A stretch of DNA of 63,745 bases, filler included, from Hausera hauseri (lineage: Eukaryota): assembly GCA_046269625.1 (NCBI GenBank). It is 10 parts of 10 records of this genome, joined end to end, with 100 filler letters (N's around TTAATTAATTAA, not from the genome) between each part and the next. Parts side by side here need not be neighbours in the genome. Positions count along the whole stretch, not along the records: positions 6,793 to 15,820 come from JBJURY010482131.1; 9 more parts are not named here. One strand, written 5' to 3'. The notes beneath the pieces were generated by a model. That model saw nothing but the letters and a program-made list of their open reading frames with translations. It made no database searches and was not told the DNA's origin. Made by a program: the position numbers and the translations under genes. How positions within the stretch are numbered: position 1 is the first letter of the stretch; the number at the start of each line of letters is the position of its first letter. Shown in pieces: positions 1-63,745 of the stretch.

Positions 1-688
1 TAAGGAAAAACTTATGAAGACTAACTATTAATACAGATGACCAAAAAGTCGTGCAACCTATAGTAAAAAAACCTACTCGATCTAAACAGACGAGGTAAAC
101 GAAATAAAACTATAACAATTGCTAAAAATTTTGCTGATCAAATAATGGAATATTAAACGCCGAAGCTATATAAAGAATACAAAGAAGTAAAGAAATTAGC
201 TAAAGAACTATATTACATAGATACCGGAAAGGACCAAATAATATACCGTTCTCCGAAATGGAAAAAACGAGTAAAGGAACAGCTTATATTTGTGAAGAAT
301 ATTAAGAAAAATTCTCACTGGAGGAATTTTTTTGTTATGATATCGTCCAGGTTATCTTGGAAAAACCATCCCGTATAAATCTTGAAAAAGTAATAATTCT
401 ATTTATTTCAGAAACACTCAATGAAACCGATTAAAAAGTTACGACTGGGAAAATAATCCAAGCTAGTAAATCCATTATTCTTCAATATGGCAAATAGAAT
501 GAATTATTTTTGAGAAATGAAGATAAACAACAATCAGAACTAGAACAAACAACCTTAGAGAAAGCTATTTTTGAAATTACAGAGAGTAGCCCACAAGAGG
601 AAGTAGTTCTCCTAGTTATGGGAAAGATGGTGAAACAAGGTCAAGAAGAAATGAAAAAAGCAGCGGAAACAAAATAAATAGTCTCTTT

Positions 689-2530
689 ATGCAAATTATT
701 TTACTTATTCTTGTGCTATTCTCTAATTTTAAGAAAACGGGAACAATCTTAGAATACGACTGCGATAAAATCTATGGCAGAAGTTACTATTTACTTATGG
801 ACTTACAATCGTGCCCGGATGCATTTCCGAGCAAATTGGAAACCATAACTCAAAATCTATACATTTACTACGATAGAACTACACTACATATGAAAGGATT
901 GGAATTCTCATTACGGCTATTAAAAACTATTACTTATTGTGGCCACCTACATCACGACTAGGTTATTCAACCTACGACAATGCCAAGATATGTGCAAATC
1001 AATCCCACTCACTGCTGCGACGCAGGCGAAACGCAACAATTAAAATGGGGAGACATCTTACTAACTGCAATCAAAAGTCAAATAACACAACAAGAAAAGT
1101 GGATCGCCAGGCATAAAGATGAAAAAAGAAATTATAGAAGAAAAAGCTTTGATACCGGCAAAGGAGTTATTTCAAAAGTGGTCGTACATGATCAATACGA
1201 AGTCGAAATCAAAGAAAATACCTATGTTTTTGAAACAAGTACCCACACCGTGATGGCTGCGTCCTTCTGTAAATTAGAAACAGGACATTGACACACAACA
1301 ACTTCAACAATAGTATGGACAGCACCAAAAAGCTATGACTGTACATTAGTACAAATTCGAAATGGTGAATTTAATGTAACAACAGGAAAACGCTATGCTC
1401 GACATTACGAAGCAAACTTCGAGAATTCAGATACTCAAGCAATTCCTGAAGTAAGAACTCCAAAAATTATTATATCCAAGGATATCAAAGGAGTTAAGTT
1501 CATACAACAGGACTTAACCATAAAATGCGGACATCAAGTATTCAGTACGAATTACGAAAATTATTTGATATCTGAGAAAGAGATTAAGGAAGCTAATAAC
1601 TAACCAACCAACAATGCACAGCTGGTTAACATAGCTGATTATATTGCAAATAGGGATGACTTCTTGTTTTATTTAACCCACAAAAGTATAGAATAAGTGT
1701 ATTCTGAAACAATTCAAAATTTTTGCAAGGCTAACTTTGAAACGTTGAGAAACAGACTGGCCATTTATGCGTCCAATCCAGAAATGATCACAATTACCCT
1801 CCTTTTGGTGCAAGGATCCTAGGTAGAGTTTTAGACGAAGTACTATTTACATACAAATGTAAAAGATTAGACTTACCATTGATTACTAATACACCATGTT
1901 ACTGAGAAATACCAGTCAAATATAATAATGAAATCCGATATGTTTAACCGATTACAAGAATGCTGTTGGCGTCGCACACCATTCAGACAGAAATTAAAAC
2001 TGTACAGCACTAAATAAACCTTTTATCAAATATGATAATCAAGATCTTTGGGTAAGGTTACCGGACCAAGATAGAGTGAAATAAAAACCAAAAAATTGAC
2101 GATGACTAACCTCATATATGCCATTGAAATCAATATGTTTACTGATGTATCAAAATCGGCTTTATAAAGTAAAAAGGAAATAGACTCGTTCGTAAAGTTT
2201 CTGGCATATCCAAGACAACAAGAACAAGTCGGAAATCGAAGAATACATAGAGTGATTGATGATACAGCTGGAGAGAGAAAATGGGATCAATTATGGACCC
2301 AAGACGCATATACGAAAATTGTTTCGAGTTTATGACATAAAATGTGAGGAGGATTCCTCAAATTTAAACAAGTAGCCTCAAGATTTCTGGCTATTTGTTT
2401 CATCCTGCAAACCCTGAAAGTATGTATTAATTCGCTATTGAATGCTTACGAAATTTATAACTTAACAGGGTTGTCGTTAAGTATAATCGGTGCATTATTT
2501 TCACCGCTTGGCAAATTTATTAAAGCTTAT
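689..2530 (+). pseudogene. env: Envelope glycoprotein, chuvirus/mononegavirus-like class III fusion protein (copy A)
   Basis: IILLILVLFS then ILEYDC...LMDLQSC, TYCGHLHH, CKLETGH-HTTTSTIVW, FCKANFETLRNRLAIYASNP, CY-EIPVKYNN, KFLAYPRQQ, and TM SRFLAICFILQTLKVCINSLL; colinear with copies B and C. Confidence 0.85.
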
Positions 2531-4223
2531 CATGAAAAACAATGGCGAGGAAAACTAGAGAAGCATGTAGATTACAAAACAAGTAAACCAGTAGTTAAGG
2601 ATACCTCATCAAGCTTTGACAACGATGATGCACCAGGGTATTACCCAGAATGTGGAATAAAAAAGAAAAAAATAAAGAAATTATTCAACATCACGAAAAT
2701 GAAATTGAAAAATAATTATAACAAACCAAATGCACCATATAAAAGTAAAACCATTCCGACTGTGAAATTGCCTAATTTACCAGACATGAAAGACCTATAT
2801 GCTACAAGAGAAGAGTACATAAGATTACGTAGTCTACCCAAATTCTCAAAAGAAGAGTTACTTCAATCCATAATTACACAAAACATGGAAAGGAACCGAG
2901 TGTCATTACCAATATCCCCAAAAATGGGTATAAGGCCACCAATACCTCACCATCGAGTGAAGGCGAACACTTCTCTTAACAGTCATAATATTGAACAGCA
3001 GAAAGAATCAAGATACTTACCCTTAATAATAAAATCTGCTGATGTACAACAAAATCCAACGGAGCGCACAAGTAATTATCCGGATCTCACTGAGTTCAAA
3101 CAACAAAACACGAAACTCGAGGAAGATCCTCAATCTCAGGATAGTCTGACAGTTATACTATCAAATGGAACAATAACAAATTATTGTGCAGCCAGTTATA
3201 TCTTAATGGAACCACATATAGACGATCATAATGACGTACTAACCGTTCTTGAAATTATAAGAGACAGTCGGTCGCACACTACTATCTACTTCGATACATT
3301 CGATATAGATGCGATGATAGACACAGCAGCTAGTGTCTCCTTAATAGCCAAACATGCGATACCTAATGAACTCCAATCTCAAATAAAGAAGGAACGTGCA
3401 GGCACTACTTCAGCTTTTGAACAATGTCTAAAACCTTATAGGTATTGAAAATGTGAGCCTTTGATTTGTGGGTAAAAGATAAAAGTAACCCTAGATGTGA
3501 TGAATACTTTAGATCCTCGATGCATTATTGGATGAAAGTTTTACGAAAACTTGAAGGATTCCATATTAACCTACAATCAGGATCAATTTGTCCTAATAAT
3601 GAAAACGTTCCCAGAAATTATAAAAAAACAGACATCTGGATAGGACATACTGAGAAAATACCACCGTACTCCAGGATGGTTATTCATGCCAGAATAATAT
3701 TTCCAGACAACAGCATTTTTGAATTTATACCAGAATTTCTTCTAAATGGACTTATATTACCTCACTATTGTGTCAACGTGATCGGAGGAACAATCCCTAT
3801 TGAAGTATTGAATCCATCACCAAAATATATTACATTATTTCCAAGAATGAAAATTGGACAAGCTTATGAAACGGTTTGTCATACCGAAATCGACGGTAAA
3901 CTTGCAGCAGTTTCGTTGGATAAAGAAAGGAAAGTTGAAGATACGCTCGACATTGTTTTCACAAAAGCGAAGAAAAATTTATCGGTTGAATATTTGGATA
4001 ATTTCTCAGAATTAATTTATGAATATATTGAAATATTTGCAAAAGATGAAACTGATATTGGACGAACCGACTTAGTCGAATTCAAATTATGCTTTTTGAT
4101 TAATCCTCGGACAGAAAAAGCGGTAGATTTATTGCGACAACCTATTCCAAAATATTATCCACCTCCAAAAGCACTCCAAAAGGAAGTTGAGAACAAATAC
4201 AAGCAATGTTAGGTAAAGGTATC
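2438..4223 (+). pseudogene. Env cytoplasmic tail fused in-frame to retroviral aspartic protease, then degenerate dUTPase-like domain and RT N-terminal stub (copy A)
   Basis: ORF 2438-3448 runs unbroken from the env membrane region (AYEIYNLTGLSLSIIGALF) to DAMIDTAASVSLI; 3466-4212 has IPPYSRMVI...IPIEVLNPS...KIGQA and IFAKDETDIGRT. Confidence 0.85.
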
Positions 4224-4479
4224 AAATAGGGGCGCAGACGCAATTTCGAGATTACCTTATAAATGAATAGTACATGAACCAACGGACAAAGAGAAAGATA
4301 GGCCATTGAACGAAAAAATTATCAATGACATGTTACAGGAACAACAACAAGTTTAGATTCAAAACATTGAAACCTTATAAAACCAAGATCCGTTCATTTT
4401 TTTAGGTCAAACAATTAGTCAATGGATATACGTTTGAGCAAGTATCAAGCCAAATTCAGAAATTTTATGAAAAACAGAA

Positions 4480-5620
4480 AGAACAATTAGAAATTGAAAA
4501 TGGTGTTTTGAAACTTAAGAGCGGAGAACGGAAATTAATAATGGTACCCACTCCAGCAATTAAACCTGCGATGTTACAGGAACATGATTCGCATTTAGCC
4601 GGTCACAAATCACTAAATAAAACCCTAAAGCGAATAACTGCAAAATTTTATTGGCCTTAGATGAACAAACACATTGAAGGATGGGTACGTTCTTGCAGAA
4701 TGTGTGCAACTCGGAAGGATAAAAGATTTCGTGCAAAACCAATTTTGGGAAACCTTCCAGAGGCACGACAACCAATGGAAATTTGTTCAATGGACATTTC
4801 AAAACCCTTCCCATCGTCAGATTCAGGATATAGATATATTCTGTCACTCGTAGATTATTATTCGAGATATGTTATCTTAGTTCCCTTGAAAAATATGACA
4901 AGTAGCACGGTACGGAAACCTTCTTCCACGAAATAGTAGCAATGTTAGGCACTCCAAAGCAGTTACTAACTGACCGAGCATCATATTTTATCAGTGAATT
5001 TTTTGAAAAATTATCAAGGATATTTCAGTGTAAACACTTGCTAACCACATCATACCATCCACAATGTAATGGTATGGTTGAACGAATGAATCGAACAATT
5101 CAAGGTATTTTGTCTACAAAAGTTTCCCATGATCAAAAAGATTGGCATCTTCATTTAAAAACCACACCTTTTGCGATCAATACTACACCTACCAAAGGTA
5201 CAAATCATTCACCATTTGAATTGATGTTTGGACAATTACCTTTGTTACCGTTGGATACCGAATTATTGCCGTCCCCTTTAACAATAAGCGACCATATGAA
5301 TGATTAATACCAAGACCTACTCAAAAGACTGGAATACTTTCAGAGGGAAGCCAAAACTTTCGAAGAAAAATATAAAAGCGGTTACGGGAACAGTTCAATA
5401 AAAAGGCGCGTCCACACACCTACAAAATTGGTGAGTACATAATAATACATTATCCGTCGTAAAGAAAGGAAAGTCGTTGAAATTGACACGTACCGGCCAA
5501 GGACCATATAAAGTAGTAGACGTGCGTCCATAAACTCTTTCTATCCAAAAGGGACCTAATAAATATGAAGCGGTATCCGTACAACAAGTTACGAGAGCAT
5601 CAGCATTGTATAATGAATTC
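4480..5620 (+). pseudogene. Integrase (HHCC, DDE core, GPY/F) of copy A
   Basis: HDSHLAGH...CRMC; MDISKPF...VDYYSRY; LLTDRASYF; HPQCNGMVERMNRT; KKGKSLKL...QGPYKVV. Confidence 0.93.
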
Positions 5621-5746
5621 ATACGACAGTCAGATTTCAACTCTGCAGAAACGGTAGAACCTAAAGTAGCTCTTTTATCCCAAAAACCTAGTAACCGGAA
5701 CTTTTACAGGTGCCGAGTTCACCTCATATTGGGTAGATACTTTTGT

Positions 5747-6657
5747 ATGGTTTAATTTCTTTTGTTTGCGTTTTTCTTGAAACTTACAGCTGCTATCGAC
5801 AACAATACTGAATTGGTCCAACGTGCAACCATTACACATGTCGATAAAAGCAAACCTAGTATTTGCTTCAGAACGCATTTACCAGTGTACCCACGGCACG
5901 AAATAAAACTTGTATTCACGCTATCAGATAATGTATTGACCAGTTGTTCAATCCCGGAAAAACACCGTAAAACATGTTGTCAATTGAGATAGAACACTTC
6001 TAATACTTATTACGTGCTATTAAAAACTCCTGATCCAGATGGATATGTCACCAAATGGAACTCAAACGTAAATATTCATATTCCCACTTACGGTATCATG
6101 GGATTCCTGGCTAACTTAGACTTACCAAATTATGACACATTTACCACCCGATTCTTAGAGAATAATCTGGAAATCTTAGATATTGACCCAACTACTCCAT
6201 ATATTAATTTTCACACTATACAACTTTTACCTCTTGGATATGAAATCGATATATGGTATGATACTTATTCCAGATTTGTTCCGCAATTACATTTTTGTAA
6301 TCTAAACGGTGCACATGATCGAGTATGCTGTACTCTCCATACCGACATATGATATTCACTTTGTTTTGACATGTACTTAAGGATTGGTAACAATCCTTCC
6401 AACCGTATACATTCTTTTCGATTACCAATGTTTATCTTTATTAAGCAGGCACAACTGAAATCGATTTCGTGTCAGATAACAAGTGCAACTACTACAACTA
6501 GGAATACCACACTTATTTCTACATCAACTACCCGGGTAGTCAGCCCTTAGGGTAGGAGAAAAGACAATGAAAAAGATGGAAAAGATGAAGACTATGGAAA
6601 TGAGGAAGACAACAAGCTAAAGTCAAAGCCAAAAATAAGCAAACACATAAGTAGGTA
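5747..6657 (+). pseudogene. Post-integrase secreted/surface protein with two Cys-containing repeats and a Thr-rich stalk (copy A)
   Basis: Signal-like FLLFAFFLKLTAA|IDNN in the integrase frame; repeats SCSIPEKHRKTCCQL and FCNLNGAHDRVCCTL; TSATTTTRNTTLISTSTT near the end. Confidence 0.55.
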
Positions 6658-6792: not shown

Positions 6793-7420
6793 CGTATAAG
6801 TATGGAGTTTGATAGGAGTTGTTGCATTATTCGCTATTCTGATATGCACGCGACCAGAGTGTACTTTCATAAGTACGTTACTGAGCGTTATATTTGGATT
6901 TAACGTTTCCTTTGGTTCAAAATATACTGGCTGATCGTCATCTTGCTGAATTTGTGCATAAATTATTATTTCCGTTCTTGGTGGGATATTTTCATCTACT
7001 GGTATCCACACTTCTCCAAATTTTCTATCCTTAGCGTCTTTCACGCCTTTCTTGGGTCTGATTTCTATTAATTTTCCTGTTTGCAAGTCGATTGCTATAT
7101 TTGGTAGCCTTTTTAATAAATCGCATCCCAGAACGACATCGTCAGTTAATTGTTCCATGATTGCAAATTCATGTCGAAATGTTTGTCCAATTAATTGGAT
7201 ATCTGGGTTCCATTTAAACATTAGTTTTGACATTTGGCCAAATGCTCCTGTACTATCCGGGTCTTTCGTATACTGCGGATATAACTATCTTCTTAGCGTT
7301 TGAGGTATTAAATCATTTTTGATGTAAGACATCTCGGAACCCGTATCAATTAACGCATAAACTTCCCAATCTTCAATAATGATTTTGTCGAAGGGTCTTC
7401 CTTTGATCACGGTTCCAAAA
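6793..7420 (-). pseudogene. Aspartic protease plus degenerate dUTPase-like domain (copy B)
   Basis: YALIDTGSEMSYI, DVVLGCDLL, IPPRTEIII...HIRIANN..PIKL. Confidence 0.88.
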
Positions 7421-8059
7421 CAGTTTGCTGCTACTTTCGAACGTGTAGTCACTGATATTTTGTGTCCGTATATTTGTACTTCTGGGGCGGATACTACGTT
7501 TCCCGATAATTGTCTTAATTCTTCGTTTGGATAGAATTCATTTTTTTCTACATGTAGTTCTTCCATTTCATGAGTACCTATTTGCGGCTCTCGATTGTTG
7601 GTATGTAGTTCAGTATGTTGGAAGGTTTTCAATCTTGGGTTGTCCCAAACCGTCGATCTAGTTTCGATATTTTTAGGTTCTCATGGTGAATACAACATCT
7701 TGGGGTCATCTGCGGATTGTCGTAAAATTCCGTAACGTTTTGTCCCTTCGTAAGGATCCTCTAAATTAATTTTTCTTTTATAAATTTCCTTTTGATATGA
7801 GCTCATGGATCGCTTGTCACAAACTTCGTAGAATGGAGCGGTAGGGGGTGATATGGGTAATGGCGCTTTAACTACAGAGTACACCTTGTGTCTATTCATC
7901 CTTGAAAATGCTTCTCCTCCCTTAGGCTCGTCATCATCTGATTATTTCTTCGTATAATAGGTTTTGTAGACTTCCGCTTTCGTGGGAATAACGGTCTCCC
8001 TCTTCCTTTGCGATTATAATAACTGACATGACGTTCTACGTCCAATTTTCATCTGCTCT

Positions 8060-9893
8060 CTTTGTAAGCTTTTAAGAATTTTCCAAAAGGCTTTATGATT
8101 TCAGTCAGAATTTTACATGAAAATCCGATTAGTGTAAATATTTCGTATCAGTTTATTAAGGCTTGGATAACTGCCTTAATCATTTGTATCAGAAAATATA
8201 TCGCTAAAAATCCTGATGCGGCTTGTCCAAAAATTAAAAATCTTCCCCAGATTTTGTAGAGTATTTCTGTTGTCACTCTCTGATAGTGGTTCACGCCAAG
8301 TAATGATTCCCATTTAGCCTGATATCGTGTATCGTCTACTACAGACACCATAGCTCGATTTAGCTCATGTGTTCGTTGTCGTGGGAAGGCGAGGAATTGT
8401 CTGAAAGCCTCAATTTCCTTCGGCCTATATATACCTTTTGACGAGGTGTCTTGAAATTTATCGTCTACAATACCCTTCGCAAGAATCGTCCCTGTTAGCT
8501 TGTTAGGAGCGGCAGTAATACCTCCGTTAGATAAACTAACCCAGTCTGTTTCACTTCGTCTGAACATTGGCTCTCCTAAGCTTGCTTTGCAATCTTTAAG
8601 AATGGTTGGTTGTGTTGCGTTATCCAACAGCACTCTCGTCAACGGTGTAGCTAATCTCGGAGTATTCTGATAAATAACAGGAAGTTCTTGGATGCAGCGT
8701 TTTTCTTCTACGTTGATGGGTCTTCTCTTTTTTCGCATTCATAGGTTATCAATACTTCGCCCGTAACTCGACCGAAAATTCCTTCTCTTATGGGAATTAT
8801 TGGAGAAGCTAATTCCGGGTTTGCATAAATAAGCGCCATTTTAGTTCTCATGATTTCTGTATCTAATTTGCAGTCATTCATTATCATTTTGTGATATAAT
8901 TCCGCTATTCCAACTTGTCCTTTATAGTAGAAGTAATAGTCTCTATTTTTCAGGTAATCTTCAATCCGAACATACTGCGTTTCTAATTTGTAGGTTTTTG
9001 CGTTTATCTCCGTTCCGGCTACAAAGAACGCTTCGTAGTTTGTGGTGAACATTACTACATCGCAACGAGTCATCATCTTTTTTTTATAAATTTTAGTCCG
9101 TACAGGTCTGAGATTAATATAGTCGGTGTAGGGTGTTCCGATACATCTTCGCGCGTTCTCGAATTAGTCTCCGATTTGTCTGCATATCGTTTTCCGGTAG
9201 TTTCATTAAACTTTAACTCTTTAATTTTGATAAAGTTAAAGCTTCTTCCAGAGGGAGGTTCCCATATTATAACCGAAATTCTAAAAGCACAGGTTCCGTC
9301 TTTTAAATGACATTTCTGATTCTCAGTGTATAATTTAGTAACACTATGGAACATTGCCTTTTGTAATCGCTTTTCTGATTCGTAGAAATCCACAATTACT
9401 ACTTTTGGTTCTAATCCTTTGCCAGTATCATATTCTGGTCCATTACAATGTCCGGTATGCATATCCAGCCTTCCGGCTACTACTTTCTATGGTCTGATTA
9501 TCTTTCGTGGTTACATTTCTAATTGCATACTGTCCCATTGTACTCTTCCAGTCTCTTTAGCTTGTTTGCAATGTTGGCGTTCTAAATTCATTGGAATTAG
9601 TGGAGTGGTTGGCTTAATTATGGAGGAATGTCCGTGTATTAGTCCATAGTGGAAAATACTACGCGATCGTCTTAACATGCACTCCATTCCGTCTAACCAT
9701 ATCAATTCTTGTTGTTGATACAGGAAGTAACTTTTCTCTCACGTTTCCAATTTGTGCGGTCTGGCGTCCTCGCATACTTCTAGGTCCATTAAGGAATATC
9801 TCTGTCCTAATTTAAACTTATCGCAATCATAGACGGTTACCGAACTTATCTGCTTTATTAGCATCATTAAGGTAAGCAAGCTAATTAGCCAAT
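8060..9893 (-). pseudogene. env: Envelope glycoprotein, chuvirus-like class III fusion protein (copy B)
   Basis: NWLISLLTLMMLIKQISS|VTVYDC..YSLMDLEVC; ECMLRRSRSIFH; CHLKDGTC; LYHKMIMNDCKL; GEVLITYEC; CIQELPVIY..TPLTRVL; GIY..FLAFP; TM WGRFLIFGQAASGFLAIYFLIQMIKAVI. Confidence 0.88.
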
Positions 9894-9899
9894 TCGATT

Positions 9900-12800
9900 C
9901 ATTTTTCCGACCTCCAACATCTGACGTTGTCAAGTTACGCAACTTATCGTCGAGTTTATTGTTGTTTAGTTTGTCTTCTTCCTTGTCAAATATCTTTGAC
10001 CAATTTATTTCGCAGGGCAATCTTTTCGCTGCTTTTCGTGCTAAGCTTATAGCTCTATTGATTTCATTCTCCCGATTAGGATTTATTTTGATAGCCAAGT
10101 ATAGCAGTACCTTTCTCAATTCTTCATTCGTATTTTCTACCATGATCTTTTCTGTTACTGACTCGTCGGTTAAGTTACTTTTTGATAGTTTGAAACGTCA
10201 GCTTCTCATCATTTTAACTTCATCGAAAATTATTTTTTCTTTATCATCTAATACATCTCCTCGAAAACTAGAATAATTCACAATTCGTATTAAATTTTTC
10301 ATTAACTCGTTTAATTCCTCATTATCCGAACTAAAAGTCGGAATCGACATCTGCTTCAATTCCCTAATTAATTCTCCGTTGTAATCCACTTCTTCTCGAA
10401 TTTTTCTAGATCTGTCTACTGGGCGCTTTTGTCTTGGACCCTTAGTGGTTGTTTCACTTAGTGGTACTATATTTATTTCGTATTGTTCCTTATCTTCCTC
10501 TGTTTGCAAATACTCAAAATATAGTGCAGCGTCTCGGACACCCATGATTTGTCCTACACATTGTTCTGTTTTGGCTTTACGTGTAGCTTCTTCTTTTGTC
10601 TGTGTGTTAGCTATCACTACTACTATCCGATTTGTTTCGTCAGGAATAATCCCGACGTCTATTAGATGTTCTTGGTCATCGAGTATTCTACCTCTAAAAT
10701 AAAATCTGTAGTTTAAGTCGTTCGTTCCACCATTGTTTATCAGCCATTCTCTTATATCCTTTACGTAGGAATGTGTATTTACTTCGCATTTTTTTCGTCC
10801 ATCCATTAGGATGACACCATTACCTTTATCGCCACCGTAGGTTTAGACCTCAAGATCTTAGCGTACCTCCTTATCAAAAGTTTTGGCACCGTACTGTAAA
10901 TCGTGTTTTCGCTAGATAGTTTAGTTAAAGTTGGAATAAGTTGTCTTAATTTACTTTCAGTAATGTTTACGTCAATTAGTTCAATCAAATCCCTTTCAGT
11001 TAGCTCTGAATCCAGTAGCATCTTTACATTGAATCTCCTGTCCTGCGGACATGTCTCTATTTTGTTTAGTTGTACTGCAGTCATAGATTTTCCGGCGAAT
11101 ATTTCGTCGAAGTATGCATCCCATTCGGGTTCGTTTCCGGCATACGGGAGTCGATAGTCCATTAAAGCCGCATTGGCTCTTTGAATGTTTTCCCGAATTT
11201 CCTTTAATCTAGGTTGTATTTCTTTCATTTGCGTAGTTCGGAACCCTACTCCATTTCCACAGGCATACTGAATCATTTTCAGTAGTTCAACCAATTCGTT
11301 TGGGCCGACCAGTCCTTTCTGGTGATAATAGGTCAATTCTAGAATCACATCCTTTTGACATCTTTGTACGAATTATCGTTTATTCTTAATTTCTGATTCG
11401 GTAAAAGCATATATGTTTCGATAGACTTCGAGCTCCTTTGTTATTTCCTCTAACTTTGTTGCTCTCTGTTTCGTCTTGATACATGTTTCTTCTACTTTCT
11501 GTATCTTGGACATCAACTGCCTCATCTGCTCATCGCTGATTTCTGCCATTTCCACTAATATATAGGCTAACTCATACAGCTCATTTATAACCTTCGAATC
11601 AGGGTCCATTGCATCCGACAATTTCTTTACAAACTTGTGTTCCTGAAAGCTAAAATGTGGGTCGTTCCCGATTTCTATTAACTTGGTATGGAAATTTTGG
11701 TCCGATCCGGCCATCCATGCTTGATGTTTGTGTAAAAACCTTATTGCATCCGTTAACGTATCTCGATATCCTGGACAAATGTCCAAGATTACAATGTCGG
11801 GTATTGAAATTTTGTCGATTGGTTTCTCGGTTAAATATTAAATCCCTTCTAGCCGAACAATCCTTAACTTTGCGTTTACATCATGAATCATATTCCGTTT
11901 CTCCGTAAAGTTTGTCTATTCAATCAATTTGTAGATTTCCTCCATCATTGACGCTCCCAGTTCCTTTTTCATAAATTTTAGTCGTCGTAGCCGTTTGAAT
12001 TGAGTACGGATATCTATTTCTATCCGCAACGTGGCTAAATCGTGTGCACTTTCCTCTAGTTGCTTCTTCGCCGTTGGCTCGCTTTGCGGAAATTCTGTTT
12101 TACGTTCTTCTACCAATTTGGTTAGTCGCGTTACTAATTCGGACCATTCCGACAGTTGATTTGCGATTACAGGTTTCGCAATTATTGCTTTATCTATCAT
12201 CTTATAAGCATCTTCTAACTCATCGTCTGGTCCTCTTAGGAAATTCATAACTCGTACGACATAACTAAACTCATCCTTGTACTCGTCCAATTCTATGATA
12301 CAAGCCTTTACTATATATTGGGTATCCTCGTTGTTTGGGAACATAATTCGATTTCTTAAATTATAAATCTGTGCTTATATTTCATTTTATATTCTAATAC
12401 GATCCTCTAATTTCGTATACCGTCTAGGTTTAGCGAAAATGAGTTTAAATGTCCATTAAGGGAGGAATATCTACTAGGTCTATACCCAATTTTTCTAAGT
12501 CGATATTACTTCGGTGGTTAACCGGTTTTTCCCTGAGCCGGCGAATCATTTCAAGGCGAATTTCATCCATCATACGTTCCAAACTGCGAGCTGCTCTCTT
12601 TAATTTCGGGCTTGCTTCTAAAATGGACAGTAATGCCTGAACTTTAGTGATTTTTACGTCGACTTTATCTTCATTTTTATTCCAAACTTCTGAAATTTCT
12701 ACTCCGCTTTTAACCCATGATTCTAATTCTTGCTTCCATTTTAACAACGTTTCGGTTGATACTTCTTCAGGTTGTTCTACGTCGATTGCTTCCGCAAACT

Positions 12801-13500
12801 TTCCTTTCCTATGCAGTTTCAAACTTTTATATAGCTTTTCAGCAAATTGTTGCTCTTTTCCAGATATGTCTACTTGTTCGCTAATTTGTTTAAGCCTTTC
12901 TAGGTCAGACTGTAATATTTCTGACTCATTACGCTTGTTTCTCAATTTTCTTAATTCATTGGCGTTGCTCCATGAATTTCGGACTTTCCACTTCTTGGGA
13001 TCGAAATCATCAGTATTCGTTGTTTCTTCCTCACTAGTAGGAAGTGGCCAAATCTCGTTAATTTCACTAGTTTCCTCTATAGACTCCGCTACTTCAACCG
13101 GTGTGTGTGAACCAATTTCTGGTGTGTTCAAACTATGGTCCGTGTCTCCTCCTACAACGACATTCGGGTTTTCCTTTTCTTCAATCTTCTCTCTGGTTAT
13201 TTTGGAGCGTGAACGACTTATACGTTTCGTTTTTAATGAAGGGCTTCGGCCTCTATTTTTCGTAATTTTAAGTATTAATGGCCCCATAAATTCATTTTCT
13301 GCGGTATCAGCTGTATCATCCTAAGTAAGCTTAACTACTTTTTCAACTGTAAACTCGGGCTCTGCGTCTAAGTCGACTGCTGTCGATGTACTTGGTTTAT
13401 CAGATGGTTTATTGCTTGTCAGAATACTCTTTTTCAGTGTCATATCGATTCGTTTAGGTGCTATCGCATGCTCATATTCAGTTTCTGGTTTTGCTAACCA
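9900..13500 (-). pseudogene. ~1200-aa accessory region between Gag and Env (charged/helical segments, unknown function)
   Basis: Back-to-back ORFs 12445-13287, 11916-12344, 11373-11786, 10806-11348, 10198-10806, 9739-10143; homologous segments recur at 37920-39150 and 63092-63745. Confidence 0.75.
10611..10835 (-). other. Integral ubiquitin-like (beta-grasp) domain in the retroelement polyprotein
   Basis: IKVMVS/MDGRKKCEVNTHSYVKDIREWL...YRFYFRGRILDDQEHLIDVGI matches the ubiquitin pattern [21 protein letters not shown]; no C-terminal GG. Confidence 0.7.
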
Positions 13501-13532
13501 TGGTACACTTCTACTAATCTCAACTTATCTCC

Positions 13533-14697
13533 CTATTCTCTTCTAGCCATTAAAATTTGTAAGTTGGTAGTGTCTGGCTGAACATCTAAGAATTTTCTCA
13601 AGTCCTGTATATCGATGATAGTGCCTGTATCTCCACGAACGCCATACTTTGCTTCTAGATTCTCATTGATTCTAATCATACTAGTCTTATTTTGATCAGT
13701 AAATGAGACGCTACGTGGATTTGGACATGACCTTGAAATATGTCCTTCTTTGCCACAAGTAAAACAAACTAGATTTCCATTTCTGCCGACTCTCTGTCGG
13801 CCGTCTTTGTTCACCGGTGACTTATATATATTTATACTTTTATTATACTGGTTTGGCAAGCTTTGCGCATTATCGGTATTTCGTCTGTTATCGTTATTTC
13901 GATTATCACCGTTTTGATTCGAGTAGTTTGAACCTTTATAATTTCCTCTATTCCTATCTCAGTTAGAGTCTGATCTGTTCGTATTTGTATAATTACTATC
14001 TCTGCCATTTCTGTAACCGCCATTATTATTTCTATTCCCATAATTTCTGTTACCTGTAAATCGTCTGTCGTCTCTTCCCCGATTATCATTGCGATTTCTA
14101 TCATTACGGTCGTTACAGTCATTATTTCTGTCGTTTCTATCATTATATCTGGCGTATCTATCAAGCGCCATTTCTAAATCTTGAGCTAGTCGTAACGTTC
14201 CTCCAAAATTCTCAGGTCTGGCTAAAATCAATTGTTTAACTAAGTCTCGCGACCAAATACCATTTATTAGTTGCGTCGTCATCATAACATCTAAATCTGG
14301 TGGTGAGGCCTTCTCTGCGGCGTCACGCTCTGCATCTGTATTGGCTTTAGCTACGTTAGCTATTCTCAATGTACTAATGTAACTATTGGCAAGTTTCTTC
14401 AACGCAAATGCGAACTGAGTAACTGATTCACTTTTGTTGTACTCTATTCTGAAATGCCATAAGTTTCTACTGCGACGTTACTGTCGGCAATAATTTACGG
14501 TTCAATGCTCCTACCAGGGAGGACCAAGATTTCTTCTCATCATTAGTGGGCTTACTATAAGCGTCAGCAGCTACGTTTTTCAAGTATAACAACAAGCGTT
14601 AAATCATTACTTCATCAGTAAGGCTAGTACCTTCTGCGTGCAATTTATAAGTTCTGAAGAATTCATTAAGCCCGTCCGGGTCTCCGTCGTATGTCGG
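13533..14697 (-). pseudogene. gag: Gag (capsid, RN-rich linker, CCHC zinc knuckle), copy B
   Basis: PTYDGDPDGLNEFFRTY, MHR-like Q-ESVTQFAFALKKLA, QLINGI...LAQDLE, CFTCGKEGHISRSC. Confidence 0.9.
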
Positions 14698-15011
14698 TGA
14701 AGGAAATTATCGAGTATTTTAGAAAACAATAAGATTTACCAAGCTTTAATAACTTTACAACGGTACAATTTTCGAAGATCAATACAATGAATCAACATCA
14801 GTCTATAAATTGTCAATTTGTTTCCTTCAATCGTCTGAAATTCTCTCGGTTCACTCGTTCTGATTTTCTTTTCCATCCCCGTCTTTATATAATGTTGGAC
14901 TCCATCAATCAATCATTTACAACTGTTTTTTATTCAATTTTTCATGATACTTTTTATTCAATTCTGGTTTTTCGATTAATAGTTCAATAATTACATTTTT
15001 GTCCTGTTACA
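14698..15011 (-). repeat. LTR-like segment (solo LTR of another element, or 5' LTR of copy B with the leader deleted)
   Basis: Minus strand begins TGTAACA and ends CCTTCA, with TATATAAAG and ATTAAA inside; abuts truncated gag; no TSD or second copy seen. Confidence 0.45.
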
Positions 15012-18596: not shown

Positions 18597-20983
18597 TCAA
18601 AGTGAGTAATGTCCATATGCACGACTTTCGTTGCAACTTATCCAATGTCGTTTATTGTCCAGTGACGACAAGGCAATTTTAGGTCTTTTAACCGTATACA
18701 GTTGATGGTTAATAGACTGTATGAGACGTTGTTCCACTACAAACTCATTTTTCTGAAGATATATGTTTTTGAATGTACTGTGATTTATGCTCGTCTTTTT
18801 CAATGAAACTCCCTTTGCTCTCATTTTTTCTGATCCAGCACTATCCATCATGCTGTAACATTTTGGACGGAGAAAAACCCATTCAATAAAGCGAGGAACT
18901 CCACAACTTTCATCTTTAACTAAACCAATTTTATTAGCAACTTCTATCGAATAAAGAGGATTATCTGGCATGTAATTTGATGTATCCAACAAACCATCAT
19001 TTTTCATCTTTTGCAATAATGTATTTAAATTTATATTCTTACACAACAAAAAAAGCTGTCAGTATCGCCTGCAAGAAGTTTGAGTGTACATCCAAACAAT
19101 TGTCTATAAGTCTGCAACTCAACGTACTGTAAAATGTACATGCGTAATTTACTTAGGTCTAATACAACCTCTCCGACATATATTGGTCGATCAAGACACA
19201 CTACGTCTTTATTCAAGAGAACCAAGACAATATTGTCGTCGATTATCCACGATTTTTTGAACTGAAATTTGCTTGAGTATGTAACTAAATCCTTTTCTGT
19301 GGTACATATTCGTATATTCACATGTTTAAATAAATTTTCCACCGTTTTTCCATATAATGAATTATTTTTTAACTTATAATAGTCCTTGTCACATTTGGCC
19401 GATACGATTGATCTTTTTATTGAATTTTGATCAATATAACATTTAAAGCAGCATAACTGAGAAAATTGAACTGCTCTGTGCACTTTTGTAACCACCGCTC
19501 CAAGTTTTATATAAAATTGCAAAAGTCTCCAATGGACAATATAATTTATTTTATCTTCATGTGTTAACAGTAGTTTTTCAACTTTGGATACAGGCGGGCA
19601 TTTTTTCACAGGGGCCAAAGGAAAATCATCCACTAGATCATGAATATGTGCCGGTATAATGATGTCTACCTCTAGTACGTATCTAATAGGACTATTTTCC
19701 GCATTTACCTCTTGTATCTCATTTAAAATCGATTTCAATTGATAATCTTCAAATATCTACACAAAATCTTCATGTGGCAATGGTTGTGATAATGCCCATC
19801 CGTATAAATTGTTCACATTCAAATACAACAATGAAGAATCATCCGTGGCCTCTACATAATGCGTATTTACAAATGTAATTCCACCTCTGATTCCATATTC
19901 AAAAAATCTATACATTTCCGGATTACTCAATAATTCCAAATTTACATCCAAGGTTCGTAATGCACTGTTCCATGACACATGCGGAAGAGTTATAAAATTA
20001 AGAGGATCGAAACCATCATCATTTAGAGCTCTTTGACGAAAAACATTAAATACATCGGCTAACAAATATACATCGAGTTTTAAGTAATACAACATATAGT
20101 CAAGTAAATTTCGGCAATTTGCTTCGATCCATTTTTGTCTAGCATATTGATAATCATCAATATCAACATCGTCCCAAATTGGTGGTAAATCAGTTGTATT
20201 CTCCAATATAGTTAATGATGTTGCAAAATTGTAAGGAAAAATACCTTTTCTATAACCAATCTGTCCTGGAAAAGCGGTTGATGTCAAAGGCCATTGCACC
20301 AACTTTGAAGAAAGGGTGTCCAATGATTCGGGCATAAATTGATATGAATCGATAAATTTAATTGTCAGACCACCAGAAATGCGTGCAAACATGGCTAAAA
20401 CCTTTTCTCGGCTTTGTGCTATTACACTGGGTTTCCAACTTCGAAAATGCTTAAGGGCATATTTCATAATGTGGTGGGAATCATAACCTCTAAAATTATG
20501 GAAAACAACCGGAAGTACCATGCGAACCCGTCTTTGAACATTACATGTTTGACATGCAGCACCAATATACTGACCTGTAAAATGGTCATGATCTCGAACT
20601 TTATTCAATATTTCCTTTTTGCATAAATAACACAATTCAGCTTTAAGAAACGCAGATTCCTCCTCTGCAGATAATGAAAGCAGAGAATGATGAGTATTCT
20701 GATCATACCACGGAATCACAACATCTTTAGCCATAGACTCCAAATAAGATAAATAATCTACAATGCAATTATCCCCCACGAAATGGTTATATTGTGGCGA
20801 TAAGGTAGAATCCTTTAACGGAACAAGCAATAAACCTGCAGCAGCAGGAACGTGTTTCTGCTCATACCCACCACCGCAAGGTGGTAAAACAGACTCTAAA
20901 TCGGAATATACAACAAAAGCCGGAGACACAAGCTTAGACCAGTCGGTAAACTGACACTTGTTTGATGATGGCATAACATACAA
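18597..20983 (-). pseudogene. Protein-primed family B DNA polymerase with endonuclease VII-like insert (N-terminus missing, disrupted)
   Basis: VVYSDLES (ExoI), CYLC..VRDHDHFTG..CQTCN, FHNFRGYDSH, YLKLDVYLL, YLNVNNLYG, YKLKNNSLYGKT, AGDTDSF, LRPKCYS, RAKGV, DNKRH. Confidence 0.95.
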
Positions 20984-20997
20984 TGTTGTATGTTAAC

Positions 20998-21386
20998 AGT
21001 AGTTGGAAGGGAGGAGTTCGCATCAACCCCCCCCCAAGGGAAGGAAGGAAACCAATAGGAGGAGAACACTTCATCGAGGGGAAGGAAAACTGTCGAATGG
21101 GAAGAGGACACGTCATCGGGCGGGAGGAAGGAAGTAAGCCAATAGGAGTAGAGGACGAATTAGAGAGCGTTGGTGCCAAATGGGTTTCACTATTCCCACC
21201 CCGGAACAAAGCCAATTGGGTTTTCCCACCTCGAAACAAAGTCCTACCCTGGTAGAAAGTCGTACCCTGGAACAAAGCGGTATTCCCTTTAATGAGAAAT
21301 AAGGAATAAAAATTTATTTACATAAGCAATGAATAATGTCCATAGGCGACACTGTGGTTTTTATCAACCCAGTGTCGTTTATCGTC
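20998..21386 (-). mobile_element. Second Maverick/Polinton end: AGTAGT terminus, GC-rich TIR-like block, and last 22 codons of a paralogous pPolB (21318-21386)
   Basis: AGTAGT at 20998; minus-strand DDKRHWVDKNHSVAYGHYSLLM* parallels DNKRHWISCNESRAYGHYSL* of the first pPolB. Confidence 0.7.
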
Positions 21387-61559: not shown

Positions 61560-63100
61560 AGCTCGATTTAACTCATGTGCTTGTTGTCGTGGAAAATCAA
61601 GGAATTGCCTGAAAGCCTCAATTTGCTTCGGTCTGTATATACCTTTCTATCAGGTGTCTTGAAATTTATCGTCTGTAATTCCTTTCGCAAGATTGGTTAC
61701 TGTTAATTTGTTTGGAGAGGCAATAATACCTCCATTTGGCAAGCTCACCTAGTTCGTCTCACTACGTCTAAACATAGGTTCTCCTAAGCTTGCCTTACAA
61801 TTTTTAAGAATGATCGGTTGGGTGGCGTTATCCAATAATACTCTTGTTAGCAGTGTAGCTAACCTCGGAATATTTTGGTAAATAACGGGGAGTTCCTGAA
61901 TGCAACGTTTTTCTTCCACGTTGATGGGTACATCTTTCTTTTAGCATTCATAGGTTAGCAATACTTCGCCTGTCACCAGACCGAAAATTCCTTCTCTCAT
62001 GGGAATTATTAGAGAAGCCAATTCTGGATTTGCATAGATAAGAGCCATTTTAGTCCTCATAATTTCAGTATCTAATTTGCAGTCATTCATTATCATTTTA
62101 TGATATAATTCTGTTATTCCGACTTGTCCCTTATAATAAAAGTAATCATCTTTATTTTTCATGTAAAATTGAATGCGAACATCCTGCGTTTCTAGTTTAT
62201 ACGTTTTCTCGCTTATCTCCGTTTCTACGACGAAAAATGCCTCATAGTTGGTAGCAAACATCACTGCCTCACAGCGAGAAATCATCTCCTTTTTTATAAA
62301 TTTCAATCCATGTTGATCCGAAATTAATATGATAGGTGCAGTGTTCTAATACGTCCTCACGTTTCCTCGAATTAGTTTCTGATTTGTCCATATATCGCAT
62401 TCCTGTAGTCTCATTGAACTTTAGTTCTTTAATTTTAATAAAATTACAATTACTTCCAGAGGGCGGTTCCCATACTATAACCGAACTTCTAAAAGAACAG
62501 GTTCCATCTTGTAAATGACATTTTTGAACCTCAGTGTATAAATAGGTGACGCTATGAAACATTACTTTCTGTGATCGCATTTCCGATTTATAGAAATCTA
62601 CGACTAACACGTTCGATTGCAGTCCTTTTCCGGTGTCATATTCTGCTCCATAACAATGTCCACTAAGCATGTCTAATCTTCCGGCCACTACCTTTATGCC
62701 CTAATTATCTTTCCGGGTTGCATTTCTAATTCCATACTGTCCCACTGCACCGTTCAAGTCTCCTTCGCCTGCTTGCAATGCTGGTGTTCTAAGTTCATTG
62801 GTATTAGCGCAGTTGTTGGCTTGATTATAGAGGAATATCTGTATACTAATCCGCAGTGGAAAATACTACGTGATCGTCTCAGCATGCATTCCATTCCATC
62901 CAATGGTATCAGTTCTTATTGCTGGTACAGAAAGTACTTCTTCTGTCTTGTTTCTAGCTTGTGTGGTCTGGCATCTTCGCACACTTCCAGATCCATTAGT
63001 GAATATCTCTGATCTAATTTAAATTTATCGCAATCATAGATGGTAACTGCACCTATGTGTTTTATTAGCATCATTAAAGTGAGTAGGCTAATTAGCCAAT
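61300..63100 (-). pseudogene. env: Envelope glycoprotein, chuvirus-like (copy C)
   Basis: NWLISLLTLMMLIKHIGA|VTIYDC, IFHCG, CHLQDGTC, NDCKLD, GEVLLTYEC, TM WGRFLIFGQTASGFLAIYFLIQII. Confidence 0.88.
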
Positions 63101-63745
63101 TTGATTCATTTTTCGGCGGCCAACACCCATCGTTGTTAAGTTGTATATTATATCGTCGAGTCTATTACTGGTCCGTATGTCTTCTTTGTCAAACAGCCTT
63201 GCCCAATTTACTTCGCAAAGCATTCTTCTTGCTGCTTTTCGTGCTAGGCTTATATCTCTGTTGATTTCACCCTCTCGGTTAGGGTTTGTTTTGATACCTA
63301 AATATAACAACACTTTTCTCAACTCCTCGTTGGTGTTTTCTACCATGATCTTCTCGATAACCGATTCATCGGCTAAGTTACTTTTCGATAGATTGAAATG
63401 TGAACTTCGCATCGTTTGGCTGCATCGAATATTATCTTCTCGTTGTCGTCTAGTAAATTATTTCAAAGACTGCAATAGTTTACAATTCGTATTAAGTTCT
63501 TCATTAGTTCGTTTAATTCCTCGTTGTCTGTACTAAGAGTCGGAATCGACATCTGTCTCAATTCTCTAATCAGCTCTCCATTGTAATTCATTTCTTCTCG
63601 CGTTTTCTTAGGCCTACCTATGGTTGCTTTGGTCTTGGTCCTTTAGTGGTCGTTTTCTCAATGTCACAAAATTTATGTCGTATTGTTCCTTATCCTCGTC
63701 CGTTTGTAAATACTCAAAATACAGTGCAGCGTCTCGAACTCCCAT

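What the first reader, a model, noticed from the sequence alone, without database searches (positions are those of the whole stretch)
6793..14697. Gypsy retroelement with a viral fusion glycoprotein embedded between Gag and Pol
Seen: in copies A, B and C a Cys-rich glycoprotein with a C-terminal TM lies upstream of the protease; in B it lies downstream of gag. Its hydrophobic signal is internal: ORF 9739-10143 has ~80 in-frame residues before NWLISLLTLMMLI..|VTVYDC. Stops in B are sense codons in C (MRS*/MRSS, KLET*/KLETR, LIN*/VING). Known: retroviruses and errantiviruses carry env 3' of pol as a separate spliced ORF, and chuvirus-type glycoproteins are known to be captured by LTR elements. 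Inference: this is an enveloped retrovirus-like lineage making one roughly 4000-aa membrane-threaded polyprotein (cytosolic Gag, luminal Env, cytosolic Pol), processed by signal peptidase and PR, more like a flavi/alphavirus polyprotein than a retrovirus. I cannot confirm that it is undescribed.
Basis: partly seen in the sequence, partly recalled or inferred. Interest (0 to 1): 0.92.

Follow-up and report, generated by a model that had tools for sequence, protein, structure and literature searches.

The report
Burro-like retroelement with internal envelope gene
This is a broken copy of a retrovirus-like jumping gene, probably from a flatworm, whose membrane-fusion gene lies between the capsid and enzyme genes in what was likely one long protein; the layout is real but was already described for the planarian Burro elements, and how the protein is processed is still untested.

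Summary
Copy B (6793-14697, minus strand) reads gag with one zinc knuckle, about 970 unassigned codons, a weak ubiquitin-like domain, an internal signal-like segment, a Monjiviricetes-type fusion glycoprotein, a membrane anchor, a linker and a protease. Copies A and C have the same env-before-protease order. B and C share no scored stop or frame switch, and dN/dS is 0.08-0.23 throughout. Other contigs of run X1 differ from B at most of its upstream breaks, so one ancestral frame is likely. An intact relative folds like herpesvirus gB (class III), and the RT is Ty3-like. The layout is not new. PMC6431247 calls planarian Burro/GYPSM1 the first in-frame env between gag and pol, and PMC13524379 lists GAG-ENV-POL elements in nematodes, bryozoans and flatworms. 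This scan also noted it on other genomes. The membrane-threaded processing model is inferred from hydropathy and a kept signal motif, not tested. Left open: the unassigned middle region, and whether Pol is packaged on the Env tail. Verdict: new member of a known kind.

The parts
14440..14697 (-). Copy B: N-terminal part of Gag capsid region, broken; element appears cut near 14750, no LTR seen
   Evidence: translation; weak blastp to the N-terminus of relative P0012 (E 6e-4); no Pfam hit; X1 cover drops from about 3,400 to 17 at 14748
13494..14441 (-). Copy B: rest of Gag, Arg/Asn-rich stretch and one CCHC zinc knuckle (13719-13769)
   Evidence: Pfam zf-CCHC E 1.1e-6; blastp to P0013 and P0017
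10822..13493 (-). Copy B: unassigned middle region (acidic stretch, then a long charged stretch); about 970 codons from the knuckle to the ubiquitin-like domain
   Evidence: under selection in the part shared with D, dN/dS 0.21; no family or relative found; length
10633..10788 (-). Copy B: ubiquitin-like domain (weak)
   Evidence: Pfam PF00240 E 0.0054 and 0.00063, under the cut-off; similar segment before env in P0005 and P0158
9900..10632 (-). Copy B: conserved pre-env region; BCL-2 likeness inconclusive
   Evidence: dN/dS 0.13 against C over 10545-9900; hhalign probability 0.7%, 4 of 100 shuffles reach the score; fold unusable
9834..9888 (-). Copy B: internal signal-peptide-like hydrophobic segment, just before the conserved YDC motif
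   Evidence: hydropathy; motif comparison
8241..9833 (-). Copy B: fusion glycoprotein ectodomain, about 530 codons, Monjiviricetes/gB-type, broken
   Evidence: PF24664; colinear with P0010 at 26-31% identity, whose model matches herpesvirus gB
8156..8240 (-). Copy B: transmembrane anchor, followed by a basic tail
   Evidence: hydropathy; sequence
7399..8155 (-). Copy B: tail and linker (about 250 codons) joining env to the protease in frame
   Evidence: dN/dS 0.14-0.23, no shared stop with C; same frame in C
7105..7398 (-). Copy B: aspartic protease, catalytic motif at 7353
   Evidence: Pfam RVP E 1.4e-5; motif
6793..7104 (-). Copy B: protease-RT spacer, at the position of the dUTPase-like motif of Burro; piece ends here
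   Evidence: blastp to the same spacer in P0007, P0158, P0155; no Pfam hit; position from PMC6431247
59107..63745 (-). Copy C: pre-env region, signal, env, anchor, linker, protease, spacer, RT (YLDD at 59295); 79% identical to B
590..5560 (+). Copy A, a more distant family: signal, env, anchor, linker, protease, spacer, most of RT-RNase H missing, integrase
37920..39635 (-). Copy D: zinc knuckle and first part of the middle region, 67% identical to B

Best explanation
This is a decayed copy of a multi-copy Ty3/gypsy retroelement whose gB-type fusion gene lies between gag and the protease, likely in a single ancestral reading frame that is predicted to thread once into and once out of the ER membrane. 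Shown: the domain order, two hydrophobic segments, selection on one frame, and the class III fold of an intact relative. Inferred: the captured glycoprotein kept its own signal peptide, which would act as an internal signal. Gag and the middle region would stay cytosolic, the ectodomain would enter the lumen, and the anchor would return the chain to the cytosol for protease, RT and integrase. Signal peptidase would likely cut just before the YDC motif. That would leave a membrane-tethered Gag precursor and an Env-Pol product, which the element's own protease would likely mature in a membrane-associated particle. The layout is that of planarian Burro/GYPSM1 and the GAG-ENV-POL errantiviruses; the host is probably a flatworm.
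For: Order and families. One frame: 0 of 7+7 stops shared by B and C, dN/dS 0.08-0.23 in all six regions, dS similar in env (1.03) and protease (0.90). Of B's 20 stops along the best-frame path, 9 fall on places where most X1 depth shows another base, 7 are sense in C and 2 are not matched by a stop in D, 1 lies where 8 X1 contigs differ in length, and 1 sits on a B/C length difference and was not scored. Of 7 frame switches, 6 lie where another copy differs in length. Intact relatives: of 17 scanned (15 picked as top-ranked or long from 150 listed, plus 2 cluster members), 13 have env then protease in one chain; 3 also carry a gag marker upstream; P0021 has knuckle (weak), env, PR, RT, RNase H and IN. 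C and A group with 16 such polyprotein rows in an env tree (51 of 134 eligible rows plus an A piece, FastTree local support 95). Fold: P0010 model pLDDT 80, best matches herpesvirus gB, E 2.7e-14; all 33 PDB profile hits are gB (best E 0.011). Topology: only two hydrophobic segments in B; the [YF]DC motif lies within 80 residues of the start in 61 of 73 stand-alone glycoproteins (median position 25), and a hydrophobic stretch precedes it in 13 of 13 polyprotein relatives by eye, 11 of 13 at the threshold used. Literature.
Against: B and D have a stop at one aligned codon (13496 and 39154) shortly after the gag region; only 8 X1 contigs (depth 87 of 1,422) show the length difference that argues against its being real. 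The frame switch inside the capsid region near 14450 has no supporting row. No intact copy of this family was seen, and X1 may be the window's own source. The fold was predicted for a relative at 26-31% identity, with TM-scores to gB of only about 0.3-0.4. No signal-peptide or topology predictor was available. BIR, MATH and ankyrin domains of Burro were not found in B. Host placement rests on one degenerate gene with a long branch.
Confidence: 0.75

Rival explanations
1. Same gene order, but Env is made mainly from a spliced sub-genomic RNA, as in Drosophila errantiviruses (own knowledge). The full-length product would then be a minor species or would not be threaded.
For: Spliced env is the usual route in retroviruses and errantiviruses (own knowledge). 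No RNA data were available to exclude it.
Against: There is no stop after the anchor: the frame runs on under selection into the protease, so any env message would still give Env-Pol unless spliced or ended again. No methionine just before the signal segment is kept in A, B and C, and the upstream frame is under selection (dN/dS 0.13).
Confidence: 0.15
2. Gag ends at a real stop near 13496, and the env-pol part is reached by read-through or frameshifting, giving excess Gag as in ordinary retroelements.
For: B and D (67% identical) both have a stop at that aligned codon; it is the only shared stop among 4 in B and 7 in D. Recoding would solve the Gag-to-Pol ratio.
Against: Eight X1 contigs differ from B in length at that place. 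Relatives P0013, P0014 and P0021 run from a gag marker to env without a stop. No slippery heptamer is visible in the ten codons upstream (by eye).
Confidence: 0.08
3. The glycoprotein is a separate nested insertion or an assembly artefact inside an ordinary gag-pol element.
For: The window is a draft of joined pieces full of nested elements.
Against: Same position in A, B and C and in 13 of 17 scanned relatives; similar synonymous divergence in env and protease; continuous X1 cover from gag to the pre-env region.
Confidence: 0.02

Closest known systems
Burro / GYPSM1 giant gypsy-like elements of planarians (PMC6431247, section 7 read in full; original Grohme et al. 2018 not held)
   Same: Single long ORF with Gag and CCHC knuckles, a ubiquitin/SUMO-like motif before env, env with hits to mononegavirus fusion glycoproteins in frame between gag and protease, a spacer between PR and RT, many copies, decayed fragments.
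   Different: B has one knuckle, not two or three; no BIR, MATH or ankyrin hit; BCL-2 likeness inconclusive; the middle region matches nothing found. Total size and LTRs are unknown. No direct sequence comparison with Burro1 could be made.
GAG-ENV-POL 'ancient errantiviruses' with HSV/gB-type ENV in Nematoda, Bryozoa and Platyhelminthes (Chary and Hayashi, PMC13524379; abstract, section 5 part 1, sections 14 and 22, passages, supplement 1 rows)
   Same: Ty3/gypsy pol, gB-type class III env, env placed between gag and pol, ectodomain flanked by a signal or membrane segment and an anchor.
   Different: The paper does not use the word polyprotein (0 occurrences) and no processing model was seen in the parts read. 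Position in its POL tree and cysteine-bridge class were not tested here.
Non-canonical nematode endogenous retroviruses (Sacco et al. 2022, doi 10.1099/jgv.0.001739; not held; seen only as cited in PMC13524379)
   Same: Env and pol in flipped order, glycoprotein captured from an RNA virus (title). A continuous gag-env-pro-pol ORF is recalled from the abstract and comes from no call.
   Different: Nematode host; relation to this family not tested.
Atlas virus (PMC9094657, passages) and mosquito chuvirus-glycoprotein BEL/Pao elements (PMC7642597, search listing only)
   Same: An RNA-virus glycoprotein carried by an LTR retroelement; Atlas has a single polyprotein.
   Different: BEL/Pao backbone; in Atlas env is last and is a class II phlebovirus-like protein.

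Membership tests
Ty3/gypsy (Metaviridae) | RT closest to Ty3-type RT | tested here: met
   C's RT: best PDB hits Ty3 RT and Ty3 Gag-Pol, E 5e-41 and 3e-40, ahead of all other hits, such as foamy virus, MLV and HIV RTs
Ty3/gypsy (Metaviridae) | Order PR-RT-RNase H-IN | tested here: met
   PR then RT in C, PR then IN in A; full order in relatives
Ty3/gypsy (Metaviridae) | Paired LTRs, primer-binding site, target duplication | tested here: inconclusive
   No flanking repeat in the self-comparison; all copies are cut by piece ends or insertions; no genome held
GAG-ENV-POL errantiviruses with gB-type ENV | Env between gag and pol | tested here: met
GAG-ENV-POL errantiviruses with gB-type ENV | Class III, gB-like fold | tested here: met
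   by proxy: model of relative P0010 matches gB, colinear with B and C env; PF24664 on the window's own segments
GAG-ENV-POL errantiviruses with gB-type ENV | Place in the published POL tree and cysteine-bridge class | not tested
   the published sequences could not be brought into the tools
Burro/GYPSM1 | Single ORF from gag through env to pol | tested here: met
   inferred from copies: breaks are copy-specific where scored; one B/D shared stop is discussed as a rival
Burro/GYPSM1 | Ubiquitin/SUMO-like motif before env | tested here: inconclusive
   PF00240 under the cut-off; similar segment in two relatives
Burro/GYPSM1 | BCL-2-like domain before env | tested here: inconclusive
   weak Pfam hit in relative P0010; for B only a faint hint and an unusable model
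Burro/GYPSM1 | BIR, MATH and ankyrin motifs; two or three CCHC knuckles | tested here: not met
   none in B's segments at E 0.05; one knuckle. So it is filed as Burro-like, not as a Burro
Burro/GYPSM1 | dUTPase-like motif between PR and RT | tested here: inconclusive
   spacer present and shared with relatives, no Pfam hit
Burro/GYPSM1 | Giant size (over 25 kb) and triclad host | not testable with these tools
   no whole copy in the window; host only weakly placed near flatworms

The most novel reading that the evidence does not exclude
Signal-peptidase cleavage before env separates Gag from Pol, so these elements cannot package Pol as a Gag-Pol fusion. Protease, RT and integrase would ride into the particle on the cytosolic tail of the Env trimer, while Gag is held at the same membrane by the leftover signal anchor. 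Env would be needed even for copying inside one cell, which would explain why it stays under strong selection (dN/dS 0.08). The 970-codon middle region would be a new accessory module. I did not find this packaging route in print (searches; passages), but Sacco et al. 2022 and Grohme et al. 2018 could not be read.
Probability: 0.35. Interest if true: 0.6.

Novelty: new member of a known kind. Interest (0 to 1): 0.27.

Why it matters
As a sequence it adds one more divergent, decayed family to a published group: its env is only about 27-34% identical to the best relatives found. The wider interest lies in the group. An env placed in frame between gag and pol forces a topology unlike retroviruses and raises a testable question about how Pol is packaged. 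This broken copy is a poor object for answering it.

Tried and rejected
No whole genome is held. Word-index protein searches with the env region found nothing; the full HMMER search did. Pattern scans of viral and metagenome contigs found no relative; a scan with alignment A1 could not be built. The run search listed one holder, X1, and no RNA holder, which is no evidence on expression. The middle region gave no usable hit in Pfam, PDB or the Atlas, and a crude heptad scan gave one window. The pre-env region gave no PDB hit, and its single-sequence model had pLDDT 34, so it was not searched. Single-sequence PDB search with C's env found nothing. A sequence look-up in earlier scan notes found nothing. 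A paper search for Sacco et al. returned noise; that paper and Grohme et al. are not held. Only supplement 1 of PMC13524379 was searched; its other supplements and figures, which may list ORF layouts, were not seen. An RT tree with named references was not built, as no named RT sequences were at hand. The careful OGT tree did not finish; the quick tree was used.
Full report
Setting. The window is ten sequence pieces joined by N-padded linkers, rich in decayed retroelements. No genome is held. Four stretches are related to the finding: B (6793 to about 14750, minus), C (59107-63745, minus, 79% identical to B), D (37920-39635, minus, 67%) and the more distant A (590-5560, plus).

Anatomy. In B, Pfam finds a CCHC knuckle at 13719-13769, a weak ubiquitin-like domain at 10633-10788, the Monjiviricetes fusion glycoprotein family across about 9885-8125 and a retroviral protease at 7105-7398. 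Only two hydrophobic segments occur in about 2,600 codons: 9888-9834 and 8240-8156. C continues into an RT whose best solved relatives are Ty3 RT and Ty3 Gag-Pol. A has env, protease and integrase but lacks most of RT and RNase H. B has no LTR; cover by run X1 falls from about 3,400 to 17 at 14748, so B looks cut just upstream of gag.

One frame or several. Across 1,220 aligned codons B has 7 stops and C has 7, none shared. dN/dS is 0.13 before env, 0.08 in env, 0.14 in anchor and tail, 0.23 in the linker, and 0.15 in protease and spacer. Every frame switch between B and C sits on a length difference. For the part that C does not cover I laid the contigs of run X1, which may be the window's own source: 7,531 contigs on 12200-14900 and 4,640 on 10500-12300, mostly under 95% identical. 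That shows many diverged copies, though depth is not a copy number. Of B's 20 stops, 9 fall where most X1 depth shows another base, 7 are sense in C, 2 have no matching stop in D, 1 lies at an X1 length difference and 1 was not scored. Six of seven frame switches lie where another copy differs in length; the one inside the capsid region has no supporting row. Against this reading, B and D share a stop at one aligned codon shortly after gag, and only 8 X1 contigs speak against it. I keep recoding there as a minor rival.

Relatives. A full HMMER search with C's env-to-protease frame gave 505 proteins at E 0.001 or better, 150 listed. I scanned 15 top-ranked or long ones and 2 cluster members. 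Thirteen of these 17 have env followed by protease in one chain, 3 carry a gag marker upstream, and one has the usual integrase-env order. They are unnamed, apart from one filed under a bacterial bin and one from an insect. In an env tree of 51 rows, C and A group with 16 polyprotein rows and one fragment (local support 95). The intact relative P0010, colinear with B and C env at 26-31% identity, folds with pLDDT 80 and a 48-residue central helix. Its best matches are herpesvirus gB structures (E 2.7e-14, TM about 0.3-0.4). All 33 PDB hits of the env profile are gB.

How it likely works. In 61 of 73 stand-alone glycoproteins the [YF]DC motif lies near the N-terminus (median position 25). In the polyproteins, and in A, B and C, a short hydrophobic stretch precedes the same motif. 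The simplest reading is that the captured glycoprotein kept its signal peptide, now internal. The chain would enter the ER there, leave by the anchor, and be cut by signal peptidase before the motif, as at the core-E1 junction of hepatitis C virus (PMC5402940, start of abstract in a search listing). This is inference; no predictor or experiment was run. A consequence, also inferred, is that Pol would stay on the Env tail and not on Gag.

Host. A broken OGT gene on another piece is nearest, among named rows, to flatworms in a quick tree; the split has support 84 and the branch is long. Earlier scan notes on this genome also guess a flatworm (unchecked). I call the host probably a flatworm.

What is known. 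PMC6431247 (section 7 read in full) describes planarian Burro/GYPSM1: one ORF of 4,873-5,140 residues with Gag, ubiquitin/SUMO-like and BCL-2-like motifs, env with hits to mononegavirus glycoproteins, and a dUTPase-like motif between protease and RT. [quoted passage not shown] PMC13524379 (abstract, section 5 part 1, sections 14 and 22, passages, supplement 1 rows) reports GAG-ENV-POL elements with gB-type env in Nematoda, Bryozoa and Platyhelminthes and cites Sacco et al. 2022, which is not held. I reached the eLife paper on my own. The Burro lead came from earlier scan notes, which record the same layout in other genomes. B lacks detectable BIR, MATH and ankyrin motifs and has one knuckle, so I file it as Burro-like and not as a Burro.

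What stays unexplained. About 970 codons between the knuckle and the ubiquitin-like domain are under selection where a second copy allows the test (dN/dS 0.21 against D), yet match nothing found. A BCL-2-like domain before env is only hinted at.

Verdict. The architecture is published; the mechanism is plausible and untested. New member of a known kind, interest 0.27.

Noticed in passing
window 5402-6600 (+), copy A: After the integrase C-terminus the frame appears to run into a second hydrophobic signal-like segment (5741-5795), a Cys-containing domain and a Thr-rich stalk; the piece ends soon after. No Pfam hit.
   Followed up: partly
window 55100-58150 (-): RNase H and integrase of a related element (tblastn E 1e-87 with P0158), followed by a broken second membrane protein with a signal-like segment, an FN3-like motif (recalled pattern, no Pfam hit) and a transmembrane segment. 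It is not known whether it belongs to B or C.
   Followed up: partly
relatives P0007, P0008, P0009, P0013, P0014, P0155: Several polyproteins carry two to five aspartic-protease motifs in one chain; B and C show one.
   Followed up: no
P0005 (HBK71150.1): An env-PR-RT-IN retroelement polyprotein is filed as a hypothetical protein of a Flavobacteriaceae bin, probably a eukaryotic contig binned in error.
   Followed up: no
window 45673-47197 (-): Intron-free, frameshifted fragment of O-GlcNAc transferase (TPR and catalytic parts), possibly a retrocopy.
   Followed up: partly
window 32434-33843 (-): Unbroken 469-codon ORF ending in a FATC domain (SMG1-like by recalled C-terminal motif); 598 bases of it recur at 34225-34815 with 94% identity.
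   Followed up: no
window 18597-21317 (-): Broken protein-primed type B DNA polymerase with an endonuclease VII hit, Polinton-like.
   Followed up: no
window 26400-32211 and 49258-49873: A long TC-rich low-complexity array, and a tandem repeat with a period of about 64-80 bases.
   Followed up: no
window 36420-37967 (-): RNase H and integrase of another gypsy element abut copy D and cut it off.
   Followed up: no
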